Virus record (IMG/VR): IMGVR_UViG_3300020043_002908
Location: 1 to 24,602 of that record
Length of the DNA: 24,602 nucleotides
Origin: a virus
Taxonomy: Duplodnaviria; Caudoviricetes
Reading direction: 5' to 3' (one strand)
A model generated the notes under the pieces. The model was not told the DNA's origin and did not search any database. It saw only the letters and a list, made by a program, of their open reading frames with translations. A program made the translations under genes and the position numbers. Positions 17,059 through 24,602 of this stretch are shown in pieces. How positions within the stretch are numbered: the first letter of the stretch is position 1; every line of letters starts with the position of its first letter.

Positions 17059-17814
17059 TCAGAGCGTCTGTGTTTGTTCGATGAACAAATCTAGTTGCTC
17101 AGCCATTGTCGGGAAGTAGTCAAGATAAGCCTGATACGACTTGCCGACTTCCGCTTTCGCTTCATCAACTTTTGATGCACAGTTCACGGCACCAAATATC
17201 TTCATCGGTCCAGCAGTCAGATGGGACAGATCCCAACCTTCGTTTTCGATGATGACAACTGGACAGCCGCACAAAGTTGCCTCATGGACCAGCGCAGTGT
17301 ACGCATCAAATGAGATTAGATATTCAGCCGACCGCAATGCTTCCGCAAGTTCTTTGCGTGTAGACGGCCAAGAATGTGTGATCAACTTTGCACCATCAGG
17401 GACATGACCGATCTGACCTTTACCGATCCACACCAACACACCAGACCGCTCACCGTCACCAGGATGAAAGATGTCAGGTTCCAGATAAGGCACATTCAGC
17501 ACAGGACTTTTGTTGATGTTCGGATGCCAAACAAACTGCAACCCATCCTTCGCCTCATGATTCAATAACCACCAAACAACACGACTCGAACCCGAAGGAT
17601 TACCTTGAACGATCTCAGGATAAACATGAATCGCATCATCGGGAATCTCAACACACTCAGGTACCGACCACGGATTGTCAACGAACGGACCGTGAGTCAT
17701 TTTCATCTCTGCTTGCAATCCGCGATCACGCAATAATTTTCCGAGCAGATACAGCACTCGAATCCCACCAGAGACACGCCGATATTCAGGCGACCAAATC
17801 ACATACGGCTTCAC
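17059..17814 (-). CDS. Glycosyltransferase-like protein (divergent GT-B)
   Basis: SGGIRVLY, VYPEI, EATLCGCPVV motifs; start reassigned to GTG 17814 (GTGA coupling). Confidence 0.65.
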   Translation of the reverse strand: MKPYVIWSPEYRRVSGGIRVLYLLGKLLRDRGLQAEMKMTHGPFVDNPWSVPECVEIPDDAIHVYPEIVQGNPSGSSRVVWWLLNHEAKDGLQFVWHPNINKSPVLNVPYLEPDIFHPGDGERSGVLVWIGKGQIGHVPDGAKLITHSWPSTRKELAEALRSAEYLISFDAYTALVHEATLCGCPVVIIENEGWDLSHLTAGPMKIFGAVNCASKVDEAKAEVGKSYQAYLDYFPTMAEQLDLFIEQTQTL

Positions 17815-18545
17815 CGCCGAAACCGCCAACTGTCAGGATGCTTACCGGCAACAACCCACTTCGGCCAATCCGCAGCAACATCAACCTCATTCAACTTGTT
17901 GCCATTCACGAACACTCCGTCACGCAAACAGTCACGCATCTTCAATTCAATGTCGCCAACATTCAACTCGTGATGACTGAACTGTCGCAACTTGTTCACG
18001 CACCGATCCACTCCACCCATCCACCCAAGATGCCAACCACCAACCAACTTCGGCATCGTATAGCGGTCAACCTGTCGCATCTTGTTAGCGGTACTGGTGC
18101 GCTGACCCCACGGACCAGCAACACAAGTCAACTCCATCGGTGCTTCCCAATGGACACTGAACACAAGATGACGCATCATTACCGAATGCCAACCATGACA
18201 AAACCGTTCAAGCATCGAAGGCGACCAAATCTCATCAACATCACAAACCGTCACCACATCACCATCCTCAACCGCCAACTTGTTGAAAGTGTGGAACAGA
18301 TAATTGCGTGTAGTTTGTTCAACTATCCACGGGTCAGGATTGACAGGTGTCATGAAGTCAACCCAATAAATCTTGTTTGCCCACGGTTCAAATCGTTCAC
18401 GACTCTCACGGACTTTCGGTAAACCAGTAAACGACTTGTCGCCTTCAATGATGACAAACAGATCAACCGTGTCAGCCAATTCCCACAACCGGCATTCGAG
18501 CATGTCGGCTTCGCCGTTGTATAGAACGCCGTCAAATACTTTCAT
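17811..18545 (-). CDS. Glycosyltransferase family 17-like (GlcNAc-transferase III-like)
   Basis: FD..LYNGE.DMLE.RL.EL...VD.FVIIE...SFTG.PK, DVDEI, GGWHL.WMGG, FSH.E; start ATG 18545 (TGATG). Confidence 0.85.
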   Translation of the reverse strand: MKVFDGVLYNGEADMLECRLWELADTVDLFVIIEGDKSFTGLPKVRESRERFEPWANKIYWVDFMTPVNPDPWIVEQTTRNYLFHTFNKLAVEDGDVVTVCDVDEIWSPSMLERFCHGWHSVMMRHLVFSVHWEAPMELTCVAGPWGQRTSTANKMRQVDRYTMPKLVGGWHLGWMGGVDRCVNKLRQFSHHELNVGDIELKMRDCLRDGVFVNGNKLNEVDVAADWPKWVVAGKHPDSWRFRR

Positions 18546-19198
18546 CAATCCCAACTCAGGTCTAGGCGGCGTTGAAGATCCCATTGACCTGCGTCAAGTC
18601 TCGCGTTGCGAAGATTGAACAATTCAAGATTCGACATGAAACTTTTCGAGTTCTTGCCTTGCAACGAAACATCTGACAAGAGTGTCGACGAGTTGTCGTG
18701 CATGATGATGTCTTGTGATTTGCGGATATTTATGTTGAGCCGCACAGCGCGACGCTCATAGTCATTGTCTTCGAAGTATGCCGGATGGAACGCTTCACAA
18801 AACAAGCCGACATCCTTGACAACCTCAGAACCGATCCACGCACAAGCCCAATCTGGTGAACCTGTCAGATGAATCTCGTTCGGGTAACACTGTTCCCAGA
18901 ACTGTTCAAGTTTGTTTGGCATGAACCAGGCGTCCGAGTTGAGAAGAATCCAACCAGATGCGAACGGTGTCATTTTGATACCAAGATTCCAAGATGTCGC
19001 CACACCAAGATTGCTGGGCATGTCCATGATGTAGGTTTTGCCGTGCCGACTGTGGCGTGGCATCACCAAACAATCTTCTTCAATCTTGCCTCCGTTGTCG
19101 ATGATGATGATCTTGTCGACAGGGAAGTCAAGTGAATCTATGCAGCGTTCAAGTAGGTCATATCGATTGAGGACTGGAATGATTACGACCGGCACCAC
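18545..19198 (-). CDS. Glycosyltransferase family 2
   Basis: IIPVLNR, IIIDNG, NLGVATSWNLG, LNSD, YFEDND motifs; GTG 19198 behind AAGGAG. Confidence 0.9.
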   Translation of the reverse strand: MVPVVIIPVLNRYDLLERCIDSLDFPVDKIIIIDNGGKIEEDCLVMPRHSRHGKTYIMDMPSNLGVATSWNLGIKMTPFASGWILLNSDAWFMPNKLEQFWEQCYPNEIHLTGSPDWACAWIGSEVVKDVGLFCEAFHPAYFEDNDYERRAVRLNINIRKSQDIIMHDNSSTLLSDVSLQGKNSKSFMSNLELFNLRNARLDAGQWDLQRRLDLSWD

Positions 19199-20478
19199 GC
19201 GGACAACTCCTTCATCACAGGCTTCCAATACTGCTCAAATACGGCGTCGGCTCCATACCCTTGAGCATGGGTAATACCCGTCTCAGAACGGCTCCTAGGC
19301 GCGTCATAGGCCAATCTGAGAGCATTAACTATCTCAGGGACCGAAGGTGTGAAGAACCATGAGTTCTGTGCCGCATCCCACCATGGCTGACCTTCAACCG
19401 TCCAACCGTCACCAACTAGCTCAGGTTGTGCCGTGAAGTTTGAGACAATCACACGACAACCGCAGGCTTGTGCTTCGATGACCGGTATCCCGAACCCTTC
19501 ACCCATCGAGCAGGCGAGCAGAACATCTGTCGCCGTGTACATCGCAGCCATCAGATTCTGTGGCATGCCGTGCCGGTAGGCGTACTGGTCGACGATCTTG
19601 TATTTATCTTGAGGAACACCGCAAGCATCAAGCAATGCAATCAGGTTGATTCCAGCCATCGCACCCATCGGTTCTGTGTAGAGATATAGCACCGCGTCAG
19701 GATGATCTTGAGCGAAGATGGAGAACGCAAGAATGTTTTCAGCCCAAGATTTACGAGCAGGATGCGCACCCTTGTTCGTCGCAATCATCGAGATCACGAA
19801 TCTGTCTTCTTCCCAACCCATGAACTCACGGCCAGTCATCTTCGTACCATTCGCCAAAGTCACCGACTCGGTCGGCTTGAACACAGATTCGATCGCATGA
19901 GGAACATAAAGATGCTCAACACCCGCAGCATCCAACATGCGTGAACCGAACTTCGACATCGCGATCGGTTTCACATTGTCACGCTCACACCATTTCAATA
20001 CTTCTGGCGGTGTCGGCTGATGATCAATCGGAACCCACGAAGCGATGTTCTTCCAATCTTTCAACGATTCAGATTTCAACACCCACACATCAAACAATGT
20101 CATCATCAATGTCGGTGTCGACAGATCTTGGTTCGCCCATTCCATTGTGTGTGCGACAAGCACATCGTCGGAGTATGCCGACAATCCTTGCGGATACATT
20201 TTGAAACCATTCCAAGTCGATGCCGAACCCGCAAGTCCGTACATCGCATGGACTGCTATTTCATGGCCTTCTTTCGCGAGCCTTTGGATGGCTTGCGCGG
20301 TTTGCTGACCGTATCCTGTTGCGGCCCAAGGTGCATTGCTGTACCAAAGGATTCTGAGTCGGTCGGGATTGACAGTTCGGATGTTTCCAAGTAATGCGCT
20401 GCGCCCGCTCGGACTAATCTCTCCGCTAAATATCCGGGCATCTCCACCGGTCGCCCTTTTACGATTACCTTTTCCCAC
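19183..20478 (-). CDS. Glycosyltransferase family 4 (GT-B)
   Basis: TGYGQQT, YVPHAI, GEGFGIPVIEAQACG motifs; start position uncertain. Confidence 0.92.
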   Translation of the reverse strand: MGKGNRKRATGGDARIFSGEISPSGRSALLGNIRTVNPDRLRILWYSNAPWAATGYGQQTAQAIQRLAKEGHEIAVHAMYGLAGSASTWNGFKMYPQGLSAYSDDVLVAHTMEWANQDLSTPTLMMTLFDVWVLKSESLKDWKNIASWVPIDHQPTPPEVLKWCERDNVKPIAMSKFGSRMLDAAGVEHLYVPHAIESVFKPTESVTLANGTKMTGREFMGWEEDRFVISMIATNKGAHPARKSWAENILAFSIFAQDHPDAVLYLYTEPMGAMAGINLIALLDACGVPQDKYKIVDQYAYRHGMPQNLMAAMYTATDVLLACSMGEGFGIPVIEAQACGCRVIVSNFTAQPELVGDGWTVEGQPWWDAAQNSWFFTPSVPEIVNALRLAYDAPRSRSETGITHAQGYGADAVFEQYWKPVMKELSAWCRS

Positions 20479-20604: not shown

Positions 20605-21801
20605 TCAGGATGCGCCACCAACGAAGTGTTTGACATGTGATGTTTGTGGCAAGTTGCCATCGACACGCATTGTTGCGCGGAAGGTAACAAGGCCTGTGTT
20701 GAAAGCGAAGTCATCGCTTCGATCCAAACGGATTCCACCAACTTGACGAACATAGTACGAAGGAAGGTGTCCGAAGATTACCGACTTGTTCGCTGTTCCT
20801 GTTGCTGCCATTGCTGGGTTCTCAAACACTGGGTAGCCCAAGAGCAAGTCTTGTGCATCAGCGTTGAGTGCTGGTGAGAACACATAGTTGCCTGCTGTGT
20901 CCTTCAACGAGCGCATCTTCGCGATTGAACCCGAGTTCATTTGGAAGCCTGAACCAGCCAAACGACGACCTGCTGTGTCTACCGAGTAGACCAAGCTGAT
21001 CAAGTTGTCTGCTGTGAAAGCACCAGTCACACCTGTTCCGCCAGTTACGCCGGCAGCAGATGCTGCGACGATACCTTTTGGTTGGTTTGTGCCTGTACCA
21101 GTTGTCAATGCTGCGTTGACTCGGTAACCGAGTTCGTTGCCGACTTCGGTTGCCAAGAATCCGAGGATGTCAACACCGCTGTCTTCGATCAACTCTGTTG
21201 AGAGTTGTACGAGGAATGAGTACTTGTATGCACCCAAGGTGATGAACGAGTTGAATACTGGATCGGATTCAGCGATTGCTGTGCCTTCACCAGTGATTGC
21301 TGCAGTTGAATACTGAGCAAGCGATGGAATCTGAAGATTCTCACCTGATGCCGTGTTCAAGATTGTTGATGTCTGGAGCATCGGACCAACATGACGAGCA
21401 AGCATGATGACTTGGTCGTAGAACGATGTTGGTACTGGTGAACCAGTCGAAGTCTTTACGACATCGCGCTTTTCAAACGAGTGTGAACGGATCTCGCCTT
21501 TTGCCATCGAGCGGATGACTTCTGCATCTGAACGAACACCGCGTGGTGCGTCAGCGACAGGACGAACCTGGTCTGCGAACTCGCGTGTTGCTGCATCCAA
21601 ACGAAGTTCACGAGCCTCATCGGCACGGAGCTTCTCGATTGTTGCTTGGCGATCCTCAAGTTCTTTGCTGATGCGCTCGTATGTCTGTGTTTCTTCTGCT
21701 GACAGGTCACGCTTTTCAGCGGCTGCAACATCAAGAATCTTCTTTGCGGCTTCCCACGCTGTTGCGCGTTGTGCCATTTGTTGTTCAATAAATTGTTTCA
21801 T
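20605..21801 (-). CDS. Major capsid protein, HK97 family, with N-terminal delta (scaffold) domain
   Basis: Coiled-coil N-terminus ending EKR|D (~R112); AESDP.F..ITLGAYK, STELIEDS, GTG..QPKGI, LKDTAGNY, LLGYPV motifs. Confidence 0.97.
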   Translation of the reverse strand: MKQFIEQQMAQRATAWEAAKKILDVAAAEKRDLSAEETQTYERISKELEDRQATIEKLRADEARELRLDAATREFADQVRPVADAPRGVRSDAEVIRSMAKGEIRSHSFEKRDVVKTSTGSPVPTSFYDQVIMLARHVGPMLQTSTILNTASGENLQIPSLAQYSTAAITGEGTAIAESDPVFNSFITLGAYKYSFLVQLSTELIEDSGVDILGFLATEVGNELGYRVNAALTTGTGTNQPKGIVAASAAGVTGGTGVTGAFTADNLISLVYSVDTAGRRLAGSGFQMNSGSIAKMRSLKDTAGNYVFSPALNADAQDLLLGYPVFENPAMAATGTANKSVIFGHLPSYYVRQVGGIRLDRSDDFAFNTGLVTFRATMRVDGNLPQTSHVKHFVGGAS

Positions 21802-21926: not shown

Positions 21927-23819
21927 CTAGAAGTTTTTCAACAGTTCAAGTTTTTTCGCCAACAAATTAACCGTGTGAGGAACTTTGGCTGGTTCGGCAC
22001 GAAGTTTGCTGACCGCACTAGACAACAGATCAGCCGACTCATCGGACAAAGTGTTGCCTGATTCGAGCATCGTGATCGCCTCAGCGAGCTTGTCTGCGTC
22101 AACGCCTGTGCGTTCTGCAAGGATGTCAAGAGAACGGACCGATGCCGAGGTTGCTTTGTAGGCAGGGAAGCCTGTCACGACCGACACTTCATGTAAACGG
22201 ATTTGGCGTAGTTCGCGGGTCATGCCATCATCTGACCATTTGTCTCCACCGGAAGGAACCGAGAAGCCGAACGACATCGAGTCAACATCGCCGCGTTGCA
22301 TCAGGACGCTCAGGTCACGGCCGACAGTTGTGTCTGGCAGATCGGCGTTCACCAACAAACCTTTTGAATCTTCTTCAAGTCGCAAAGTCTTTGACCGTGT
22401 CGAAGCGAGAAGCATCGACGAATCATGGTTCATATACATCTTGATTGTGTTGCGACCTTTCAACGATTTGCGGAATGCACCTGGTGCGATTCGCTCGATG
22501 AACGGTAGTGGTTCGGAGTCTGAGTTGAAGACTGCTGCGTAACCTGTGAATGACATTCCTTCACCAGTCGGACCTGCGCGCAACTCGAACTCGTTGACTT
22601 GGATGCGGCGTGTCTCAACCTTGTTGTCTTCCATGCCTGGAATGTTAGCAAAGTATTCAGTCTTGGCGCGATGAAACGAGAACAAACCTCGTTCGTCTTT
22701 AATCGCATTCGCTTTACGCTCAAACCAATCTCGTGCCGGTTGAGGGTTCAACGGGTTGATGCCCCACAGGTAATGTGCGACCGCACCCGCGCCAGGGAAC
22801 TGGTCGTTGCTTGCATCAGAGTTCTTCGGTGCCTGTAGATCTACCGAGTGTCGTTGCGCCCAAGCGTTCGCACGGATCACTTTGTCTTCCGTGATCTGGC
22901 CTCGTGCCATGTCTCGTGCTTCACGAACGGTTCTATCGACCAGCCCTTCACCCGCGAGACCTTGACCGTAGTAGTCCAATCCTTTTCTTGCCGCGCTGCG
23001 AATGTAGACAGGTATCTCAAGAGATACCTGGCGAACCATCTCTTCTTCTTCGTGACCTTCTTCTTCCTCTTCTTCTTCCATTTCTTCTTCGTGTGGTTGC
23101 CATGCGTTGCAATAGAATCCGCCGTCAACATATTCATCCCATCTCTCGCACCATGCTTTGAGATTGTTGCCTTCTTCGATGACATCATCTTCGTCATAGA
23201 AGTGGCAGTTCCCGCAAGCGCGACCGTCAGGAACATCAGCCGAAAGCGCAGGCCGATAGTTGTCAGGTAACGCACGGTCAGCCGCCGAATACTTCGGATG
23301 ATCAATATGCAACAGATCGTTGTCCGTGATGTAGGCAGGATTCTCTGGACGACCAACACGACTCAAATACATGAACGCATTCACTCGCGCCATCGCCCAT
23401 TGCGCACGACCAATACCAGGACGATGCGAAGTCGAATACGCACCAGCACCGCGACGATACACAGACTTCAAAACACCGAGCGTCACACGAGTCCACACAG
23501 GACGATTCTCTGCATCCATCTTCTCGTTGTGATCGGTCACTTTGTTTCGCAACGCCGTCTCGGTTGCTTCATTGATTTCTATCCCACCTTGCTTACCTGC
23601 CGCCGACCCAGCAGGGTTCTTGTCGCTACCTGTGATCTGGTCTGATGGTGGTGCCGGTGCGCGTTCGCCACCTGGTTCCATGTCTTCAGCGATAGACACC
23701 GCGACCATCTGATCAACCGCATCCTGTTTCGTCGAATGACAACCGATTACTTCGCCATCTTCTTTGATGGTTGCCCACCCAGAACAGTCTGGTGATTTGT
23801 CGGTGATGAAGTAAGGCAT
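21927..23819 (-). CDS. HK97-family prohead protease with ~395-aa multi-domain N-terminal extension (includes HiPIP-like module)
   Basis: C-terminal GYAAVF, ERIAPGAF, NHD (His), MSFGF (Ser), LHEVSVV.FPAY motifs; directly upstream of the capsid gene. Confidence 0.93.
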   Translation of the reverse strand: MPYFITDKSPDCSGWATIKEDGEVIGCHSTKQDAVDQMVAVSIAEDMEPGGERAPAPPSDQITGSDKNPAGSAAGKQGGIEINEATETALRNKVTDHNEKMDAENRPVWTRVTLGVLKSVYRRGAGAYSTSHRPGIGRAQWAMARVNAFMYLSRVGRPENPAYITDNDLLHIDHPKYSAADRALPDNYRPALSADVPDGRACGNCHFYDEDDVIEEGNNLKAWCERWDEYVDGGFYCNAWQPHEEEMEEEEEEEGHEEEEMVRQVSLEIPVYIRSAARKGLDYYGQGLAGEGLVDRTVREARDMARGQITEDKVIRANAWAQRHSVDLQAPKNSDASNDQFPGAGAVAHYLWGINPLNPQPARDWFERKANAIKDERGLFSFHRAKTEYFANIPGMEDNKVETRRIQVNEFELRAGPTGEGMSFTGYAAVFNSDSEPLPFIERIAPGAFRKSLKGRNTIKMYMNHDSSMLLASTRSKTLRLEEDSKGLLVNADLPDTTVGRDLSVLMQRGDVDSMSFGFSVPSGGDKWSDDGMTRELRQIRLHEVSVVTGFPAYKATSASVRSLDILAERTGVDADKLAEAITMLESGNTLSDESADLLSSAVSKLRAEPAKVPHTVNLLAKKLELLKNF

Positions 23820-24091: not shown

Positions 24092-24602
24092 TCAGAGCAT
24101 CAATAATAGTTCAGCTTCGTCATCAAGAATACTGAACGCAATTTCGGCTGTCGCCTGCGAACTCATCCCACCAAGAACAGTTGACGAAACCGCATAGCGT
24201 TTCTTCGGTTCAATCACAGGAACCTCGACTGGTGGCATCTCGACTAGCGGTTCAATCTTCTTGCGTGGAGTTGTTGAATAAACTCTGCGACCACCAGACG
24301 GCGCAGGTGTCGGCTCAGGTTCTGGCGGTGTCGGTGCTGAATCAACTGTCGCGACAAGACCACCAAGACTTGCTGTGGCGACTGCTTCTTGTTCGACTGC
24401 GGTGATCGCCGAAGCGGCAAGACCGCCGAGGTTCGCTGACGCTGTCGCAGGTAGTGCGACTGTGGCAGTGGCCGAAGAAGCAACACCGCCAAGATCAGCC
24501 GACGCTGTCGCTAGATGTGTGACTGTTGCTGTTGCCGAACCTGCAAGACCGCCGAAAGTTGCTTCGGCTGTTGCTTCAGTTGTGACGATGACTTGTGCAA
24601 CT
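24092..24602 (-). CDS. Ala/Thr-rich 21-aa repeat protein, 5'-truncated by window edge
   Basis: Open frame of 170 codons ending ..ILDDEAELLLML-TGA; repeats ATAxAxLGGL; absent from the ORF track. Confidence 0.85.
   Translation of the reverse strand, partial: VAQVIVTTEATAEATFGGLAGSATATVTHLATASADLGGVASSATATVALPATASANLGGLAASAITAVEQEAVATASLGGLVATVDSAPTPPEPEPTPAPSGGRRVYSTTPRKKIEPLVEMPPVEVPVIEPKKRYAVSSTVLGGMSSQATAEIAFSILDDEAELLLML

What the first reader, a model, noticed from the sequence alone, without database searches (positions are those of the whole stretch)
23094..23273. HiPIP-like [4Fe-4S] module embedded in a phage prohead protease
Seen: residues ~183-242 read NYRP...GRACGNCHFY-x15-CERWDEYVDGGFYCNAW, i.e. 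C202-x2-C205-x18-C224-x12-C237, with an upstream Tyr, an aromatic pair after CxxC, an aromatic before the last Cys, and a terminal CxxW. Established: this is the ligand and aromatic pattern of high-potential iron-sulfur proteins, normally stand-alone periplasmic electron carriers. Inference: the protease, which is packaged into proheads, carries an Fe-S (or other metal) domain into the virion. Possible roles are redox-gating of maturation, oxidative protection, or iron cargo. The phage also encodes an Fe-S WhiB.
Basis: partly seen in the sequence, partly recalled or inferred. Interest (0 to 1): 0.85.

Follow-up and report, generated by a model that had tools for sequence, protein, structure and literature searches.

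The report
Swappable iron-sulfur module in phage protease
This phage's head-maturation protease carries a small, swappable four-cysteine domain that is predicted to fold like bacterial high-potential iron-sulfur proteins and likely holds an iron-sulfur cluster; close relatives replace it with another module, so it is likely a passenger carried into the virus head rather than a switch for the protease.

Summary
Residues 183-242 of the HK97-type protease gene (21927-23819, minus strand) carry C202/C205/C224/C237. The window sequence misses Pfam HIPIP (9.9 bits, cut-off 22). However, a 51-sequence profile ranks 13 HiPIPs first in the PDB (best E 8e-4). The model (pLDDT 98) matches only HiPIPs or HiPIP-fold [4Fe-4S] subunits (11 of 11 rows, best Z 6.7). 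dN/dS is 0.09. The module is one cassette in a shuffled, Arg-bordered chain. Of 68 complete close proteases, 60 carry it; 8 carry a HAD-like module in that slot, one with an otherwise identical protease and C-terminal region. So it is not needed to gate maturation. It also rides on portals, other proteases and ADP-ribosyltransferase proteins, and stands alone in two pelagiphage genomes. It has no Tat signal, so it is HiPIP-fold rather than a classical HiPIP. Cluster binding, cleavage and retention in virions are untested. The scan noted this before on other DNA (three notes). No paper turned up in my searches.

The parts
21927..23819 (-). 630-aa modular HK97-type prohead protease gene
23661..23819 (-). 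module M1 (aa 1-53), small N-terminal domain with two Cys, ends in Arg
   Evidence: boundaries from homolog shuffling; confident in full-length model
23274..23660 (-). module M2 (aa 54-182) containing DUF5824 (aa 102-154); optional, found before or after other modules
   Evidence: PF19141 E 7e-8; architectures
23094..23273 (-). module M3 (aa 183-242), HiPIP-fold four-Cys domain: C202 23214-23216, C205 23205-23207, C224 23148-23150, C237 23109-23111; aromatics Y188, F207, W227, Y236, W240
23031..23093 (-). acidic linker (aa 243-263, 14 D/E of 21) ending in Arg; low model confidence
22686..23030 (-). module M4 (aa 264-378), all-helical domain of no named family, shared with many phage head proteins
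   Evidence: phrog_2859; ESM Atlas unnamed viral clusters; model
22131..22607 (-). S78 protease domain (aa 405-563); H465 (22425-22427) and S516 (22272-22274) invariant, taken as the catalytic pair from family knowledge (recalled)
   Evidence: T4 gp21 fold E 5e-4
21930..22130 (-). C-terminal helical region (aa 564-630), likely the prohead-targeting part by analogy to HK97 gp4 (recalled from Duda et al. 2013, not read)
   Evidence: helices in model; inference
20605..21801 (-). HK97 major capsid protein; first 112 residues hold 14 Arg against 10 in the other 286, and end in Arg just before the capsid domain: likely substrate and clue to P1=Arg specificity
   Evidence: inference

Best explanation
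Residues 183-242 are a conserved, exchangeable four-cysteine domain inside a chain of small modules in front of the head-maturation protease; it is predicted to have the HiPIP fold, likely binds one [4Fe-4S] cluster, and is likely carried into the prohead with the protease and cut free at the arginines that border it. Steps and basis: (1) homology and fold: computed, about 0.9. (2) [4Fe-4S] loaded in the host cytoplasm, since there is no export signal: inferred from the fold neighbourhood, about 0.7. (3) co-packaging through the protease: family knowledge, about 0.85. (4) release by self-cleavage after Arg: inferred, about 0.7. (5) role: most likely a cluster-stabilised accessory cargo that binds a host or phage partner early in infection, working like the non-electron-carrying HiPIP-fold subunits of glycyl radical enzymes. 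It is one of several alternative payloads for this slot (HAD phosphatase-like, Tudor-like, DUF5824). This step is inferred only, about 0.35. It is not required for protease activity.
For: The A2 profile's top 13 PDB sequences are all HiPIPs, best 1HPI E 8e-4, with four Cys in register in the alignments shown. hhalign against 19 cellular HiPIPs gives probability 94.7% over 39 columns. Model pLDDT 97.9. Foldseek top 10 are HiPIPs. VIA: 11 of 11 listed entries are HiPIPs or BSS/HPAD/MASS small subunits; best Z 6.7, rmsd 2.4 A, 55 of 60 aligned. Those subunits carry [4Fe-4S], and the gamma subunits are thought to be mainly structural (PMC13450708, passages). Shielding aromatics are kept in 51 sequences: Y188 Y/F 51, F207 F/Y 47, W227 W/F 51, Y236 Y/W/F 47, W240 W/Y 51. 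Modules change order and number, and the commonest start contexts follow an Arg. Arg precedes the module in 22 of 28 S78-bearing representatives, against 7% background, and in 0 of 10 proteins of another head-protein type. Linkers have low confidence and pTM is 0.33 in the full-length model. A HAD-like module fills the slot in 8 of 68, scattered over the protease tree. Also fused to portals, XkdF-type proteases and ART-domain proteins.
Against: The window sequence scores 9.9 bits on PF01355; only 3 of 101 representatives scanned pass the cut-off. No Foldseek PDB hit reaches E 0.001 (best 0.076), and Z 6.7 is within the range the tool calls common. AlphaFold gives no metal. The Gly of the HiPIP 'GWC' motif, seen in the 20 cellular HiPIPs printed, is mostly Y/F/H here. 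Cleavage is inferred from sequence only, and kinship inflates the Arg counts; 6 of 28 S78 and 34 of 66 other representatives lack that Arg. Released propeptides generally leave the head (PMC10052503, passages), so the module may not reach the mature virion. In the full-length model the module itself was low-confidence (alignment of mixed architectures). No partner is identified.
Confidence: 0.5

Rival explanations
1. True redox HiPIP inside the virion: the cluster cycles between 2+ and 3+ and acts as a one-electron buffer protecting packaged DNA in sunlit, oxic water.
For: The full HiPIP aromatic cage is conserved and the nearest structures are the classical HiPIPs, ahead of the GRE subunits. 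A weak viral fold hit is labelled Dps (E 0.61).
Against: No re-reducing partner exists in a virion, and each copy gives one electron. Propeptides usually exit the head. Interchangeable with a HAD-like module.
Confidence: 0.17
2. Same fold, but it binds Zn (or forms disulfides) and serves as a compact structural spacer or scaffold filler that is discarded at maturation.
For: Four Cys with CxxC; sub-threshold Pfam score; loss of the HiPIP Gly; several weak viral fold neighbours carry automatic zinc-finger names.
Against: No zinc-finger structure appears among the 11 VIA rows. Strict conservation of five aromatics and dN/dS 0.09 exceed what a filler needs. Stand-alone homologs exist.
Confidence: 0.2
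3. Redox gate: the cluster state controls protease activity and so the timing of head maturation.
For: Present in 60 of 68 close proteases and fused to several unrelated protease types. The BSS beta subunit is a precedent for a HiPIP-fold subunit contacting an enzyme's catalytic domain.
Against: Absent in 8 of 68, including a pair with identical protease sequence. Position varies before, between and after other modules. Also on portals and alone.
Confidence: 0.07
4. Iron cargo: the virion carries iron to an iron-poor host, or uses it as bait.
For: Four Fe per module; aquatic actinobacterial and pelagiphage context.
Against: At roughly 50 proteases per prohead (HK97 figure, recalled) the load is about 200 Fe, small against a cell's quota (recalled). 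It sits inside the head, not at the receptor-binding end.
Confidence: 0.05
5. c-type heme site, because C202-G-N-C205-H206 reads CxxCH.
For: The motif is in the window sequence, and the single-sequence PDB search gives weak cytochrome c hits (E 0.19-1.4).
Against: His is at that column in 1 of 51 diverse sequences and 26 of 78 close copies. There is no export signal for heme ligation, and the fold is HiPIP-like.
Confidence: 0.01

Closest known systems
HiPIP family (Pfam PF01355; PDB 1HPI, 1PIH, 8Z82 chain a, 3H31, 1ISU, 1HLQ, PioC 6XYV)
   Same: Four Cys in register, aromatics at C2+2, C3+3, C4-1 and C4+3, predicted fold (Z up to 6.7, rmsd 2.2-2.9 A).
   Different: No twin-Arg signal; internal cassette of a phage head protein; GWC motif mostly replaced by [YFH]YC; own conserved LPxxYRPA leader; below the Pfam cut-off in the window.
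HiPIP-fold small subunits of glycyl radical enzymes (BSS beta/gamma 4PKF and 9PZJ, HPAD gamma 2Y8N, MASS 9O8U)
   Same: Same fold without export; [4Fe-4S] used in accessory roles.
   Different: Those are separate subunits of anaerobic bacterial enzymes with lower structural scores (Z 2.5-4.4); here the module is viral, fused and swappable.
Effector-fused phage head proteins (MuF/portal fusions and polyvalent proteins, Iyer et al. 2017, PMC5512222)
   Same: Small domains shuffled onto head proteins, with ART among the payloads.
   Different: That paper's main text has 0 occurrences of HiPIP or iron (supplements not checked). Here the carrier is mainly the S78 protease, with Arg-bordered cassettes.
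Fe-S clusters in phage tail-tip proteins (lambda gpL and relatives; recalled; related structure papers appear in the listing)
   Same: Precedent for an Fe-S cluster in a virion protein.
   Different: Tail location, essential structural role; none appeared among this model's fold matches.

Membership tests
HiPIP (PF01355) | Score above the Pfam gathering cut-off (22 bits) | tested here: not met
   Window module 9.9 bits, E 1.2. 3 of 101 representatives pass (26.6, 25.0, 22.1 bits; the best has two copies).
HiPIP (PF01355) | Four Cys ligands CxxC...C...C in register with solved HiPIPs | tested here: met
   Alignments to 1HPI, 1HLQ, 1EYT, 3H31, 1B0Y; hhalign probability 94.7%.
HiPIP (PF01355) | HiPIP fold | tested here: met
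   Predicted model only: Foldseek top 10 HiPIPs, none at E<=0.001; VIA Z 6.7, 55 of 60 aligned, no unrelated fold listed.
HiPIP (PF01355) | Aromatic cage after C2, after C3, before and after C4 | tested here: met
   F207, W227, Y236, W240.
HiPIP (PF01355) | N-terminal cluster-shielding Tyr | tested here: inconclusive
   Y188 is Y/F in 51 of 51 and lies 14 residues before C1 (Iro: 10, PMC10654088 passage), but hhalign did not place it on the HiPIP Tyr and VIA gives ranges only.
HiPIP (PF01355) | Gly two residues before the last Cys (GWC/GYC) | tested here: not met
   F235 in the window; Y 19, F 12, H 10 of 51; Gly in the 20 cellular HiPIPs printed.
HiPIP (PF01355) | Twin-arginine export signal, stand-alone periplasmic protein | tested here: not met
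   Internal domain at aa 183-242 with no signal-like leader; cellular controls show RR-containing leaders.
HiPIP (PF01355) | [4Fe-4S] cluster using the 2+/3+ couple at positive potential | not testable with these tools
   Needs UV-vis, EPR, voltammetry.
S78 HK97-type prohead protease (PF04586) | Profile match, conserved His/Ser, position before the HK97 capsid gene | tested here: met
   E 1e-42; H465 and S516 invariant in 51; gene order.
c-type cytochrome | Conserved CxxCH and export | tested here: not met
   His in 1 of 51; no signal peptide.

The most novel reading that the evidence does not exclude
A widespread group of aquatic phages packs a redox-active HiPIP-type [4Fe-4S] protein into the head through a self-cleaving, mix-and-match cargo chain on the maturation protease. 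It stays in the virion and is delivered to the host or protects the genome, making it an electron-transfer cofactor carried as internal phage cargo.
Probability: 0.22. Interest if true: 0.85.

Novelty: new variant of a known kind. Interest (0 to 1): 0.58.

Why it matters
If the cluster is real, the HiPIP fold, known from periplasmic electron carriers and a few anaerobic enzyme subunits, has a large viral branch: at least 1,783 proteins and 105 clusters at 50% identity. It is tied to head assembly. The Arg-bordered, shuffled cassette chain offers a simple way to list what these phages load into heads, and a natural with/without comparison (L162 vs L163). The domain is 60 residues, so the main claim can be tested with a single expression experiment.

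Tried and rejected
A single-sequence Pfam scan at E 0.1 gave nothing for the module, and a single-sequence PDB search gave only chance cytochrome hits. The narrow profile A1 reached 1HPI only at E 1.2. PF01355 finds no match in the window's own record. The CxxCH heme reading was rejected. The alternative ORFs over this stretch (22848-23270 +, 22877-23359 -) were not pursued because synonymous variation fits the protease frame. ESM Atlas gave only a lead (0.85, HIPIP on 11% of a viral cluster). In one search, loci L090-L092 were wrong-frame or chance matches and were dropped. A second viral scan with the diverse alignment could not be run. The complex prediction of module plus protease domain was not available, so direct contact was not tested. 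Literature searches showed no paper on a phage HiPIP domain (37 and 91 returned 0; for 16 and 38 I saw listings only). Automatic database names such as 'High potential iron-sulfur protein like [Siphoviridae]' exist. phiPsal1, the only GenBank phage with the fused form (1 of 50,697 records), is no longer available (PMC6106888 passage).

Full report
Setting. The window is a 24.6-kb linear virus record, about 72% complete. It carries an HK97 capsid gene, a tape measure-like gene, three glycosyltransferases, a VanY-type peptidase, a methylase and WhiB. WhiB and the nearest named relatives point to an actinobacterial host: MAG contigs labelled Acidimicrobiales, Ilumatobacteraceae and Microbacteriaceae, with others labelled Alphaproteobacteria and Bacteroidetes, possibly misbinned, and Pontimonas phage phiPsal1. 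The host assignment is an inference.

Observation. Positions 23094-23273 (minus strand) encode residues 183-242 of a 630-aa S78 protease with the stated Cys spacing. The pattern arose in 1 of 200,000 shuffles of the protein. The module is common: 844 of 858 candidates of similar length, 570 of 573 viral stretches, 105 clusters at 50% identity and 1,783 of 6,630 candidates with the wide profile. Of 105 domain hits, 88 span the whole profile and all 88 keep four Cys; 17 partial hits were set aside, and this count is partly circular. A less circular set was chosen by the protease domain: 80 loci, 12 dropped as 5'-truncated, 60 of the other 68 carry the module with all four Cys. Over 78 coding copies dN/dS is 0.092, against 0.101 for the protease domain (pooled pairwise, non-independent).

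Is it a HiPIP? The window sequence alone is not recognised (PF01355 9.9 bits, E 1.2; 15 of 17 close homologs match at E up to 10, best E 0.003). Among 101 of the 105 representatives scanned, 3 pass the cut-off. A profile of 51 diverse modules ranks 13 HiPIP sequences above everything else in the PDB, best 1HPI at E 8e-4, with the four Cys and final Trp in register in the five alignments shown. Against 19 HiPIPs taken from a sample of 151 genomes (16 had a match), hhalign gives probability 94.7% over 39 columns. The model has pLDDT 97.9. Foldseek's first ten PDB hits are HiPIPs, though none reaches E 0.001. VIA over 48,161 chains lists 11 entries: seven HiPIPs and four small subunits of glycyl radical enzymes, best Z 6.7, rmsd 2.4 A over 55 residues. 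That Z is modest by the tool's own note, but no unrelated fold appears. The enzyme subunits bind [4Fe-4S]; a 3+/2+ potential of +76 mV was measured for BSS, and the gamma subunits are thought to be mainly for solubility (PMC13450708, passages). Differences from classical HiPIPs: no twin-Arg leader, the GWC Gly mostly replaced by Y/F/H, and the N-terminal Tyr equivalence not shown by alignment. I therefore call it HiPIP-fold and homologous, not a member in the functional sense. A heme reading of CxxCH fails because His is in 1 of 51 sequences.

Anatomy. The 400 residues in front of the protease are a chain of modules: M1 (1-53), M2 with DUF5824 (54-182), M3 (this module), an acidic linker and M4 (264-378). 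Homologs show M1-M3-M4, M1-M3-M4-M2, M1-M2-M3-M4, M1-M3-M2-M4, M1-M4-M3 and more, with the commonest module starts directly after an Arg. The full-length model has low-confidence stretches at the junctions and pTM 0.33; M3 itself was also low there, probably because the alignment mixed architectures. In the 8 of 68 close proteases without M3, a HAD-like domain fills the slot between the same Arg junctions (one of the eight was scanned against Pfam). These are scattered on a tree of 50 distinct rows, and L162 (HAD) and L163 (M3) have identical protease plus C-terminal sequence. Arg precedes M3 in 22 of 28 S78-bearing representatives and 32 of 66 others, against 7% background. It does so in 0 of 10 proteins of the phrog_859/18402 type, which mostly have Gly-rich junctions, and Glu precedes it in a third protease type. 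The capsid's N-terminal 112 residues are Arg-rich and end in Arg. This fits junctions that follow each protease's cut preference, but no cut was observed and kinship inflates the counts.

Other carriers. The module occurs on portals (P0204, P0252, P0190), an XkdF-type protease (P0184), ART-domain proteins (P0241, P0247), a protease-capsid fusion (L084) and as 57-65-aa solo proteins. Two GenBank pelagiphages have solo 68-aa basic homologs a few genes upstream of the terminase (34 and 29 bits on the profile). Weak viral fold neighbours are again proteases, portals and XkdF proteins.

Mechanism. Shown: conserved domain, homology, exchangeability. Predicted: fold. Inferred: cluster loading in the cytoplasm; entry into the prohead with the protease (C-terminal targeting in HK97 recalled from Duda et al. 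2013, seen only as a reference); release at Arg; then an accessory role as cluster-stabilised cargo, by analogy to effector-fused head proteins (PMC5512222, passages). The weak link is retention: propeptides generally leave the head, though some persisted in SPN3US (PMC10052503, passages). Gating of the protease is unlikely as a needed function because the protease occurs without the module.

Prior knowledge. Searches returned no paper. Searches (20 listed; 25 of 46 listed) showed no title or abstract start on a phage HiPIP; I saw listings only, plus passages of PMC10654088. PMC5512222 has no 'HiPIP' or 'iron' in its main text; its supplements were not checked and might list the domain. Passages of PMC3185693, PMC9024508 and PMC6106888 gave background only. 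Automatic database names already call some phage proteins HiPIP-like. Three earlier notes of this scan describe the same module on other DNA; my reading was recorded before seeing them, and they are not independent support.

Verdict. Real, homologous to HiPIPs, likely Fe-S, and an optional cassette of phage head proteins. New variant of a known kind; interest 0.58.

Noticed in passing
L093:2691-3074 (also L115, L128, L136, L153, L155, L158, L162): A HAD-superfamily phosphatase-like module replaces the HiPIP-fold module in the same Arg-bordered slot of near-identical proteases.
   Followed up: yes
window 22686-23030 (-): Module M4, a well-predicted all-helical domain with no Pfam family, recurs on proteases, portals and ART proteins; possibly a general head-cargo or capsid-binding domain.
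   Followed up: partly
window 23661-23819 (-): Module M1 has two Cys and a His and starts most of these proteases; weak DUF2188 matches in homologs.
   Followed up: no
L167:5983-6189 and L168:5950-6156: Pelagiphages HTVC026P gp22 and HTVC202P gp22 are solo, basic 68-aa homologs annotated as hypothetical; a possible experimental handle.
   Followed up: partly
P0206 aa 174-214 and P0190 aa 218-265: Second, divergent copies of the four-Cys module within one protein; the P0206 copy looks like a distinct subfamily.
   Followed up: no
window 17059-20478 (-): Three glycosyltransferase genes (GT1-like, GT2, GT17) and one unknown gene sit between the capsid gene and the weak head-tail connector match; phiPsal1 has a similar insertion. 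Possible capsid glycosylation.
   Followed up: no
L084:2245-4272, L088, L089: The module is attached to a protease-capsid fusion and, C-terminally, to another protease type, with Ala- or Glu-ending junctions instead of Arg.
   Followed up: partly
window end at 24602: The record ends inside an Ala-rich ORF (24092-24601); no terminase or portal gene was identified in the window.
   Followed up: no
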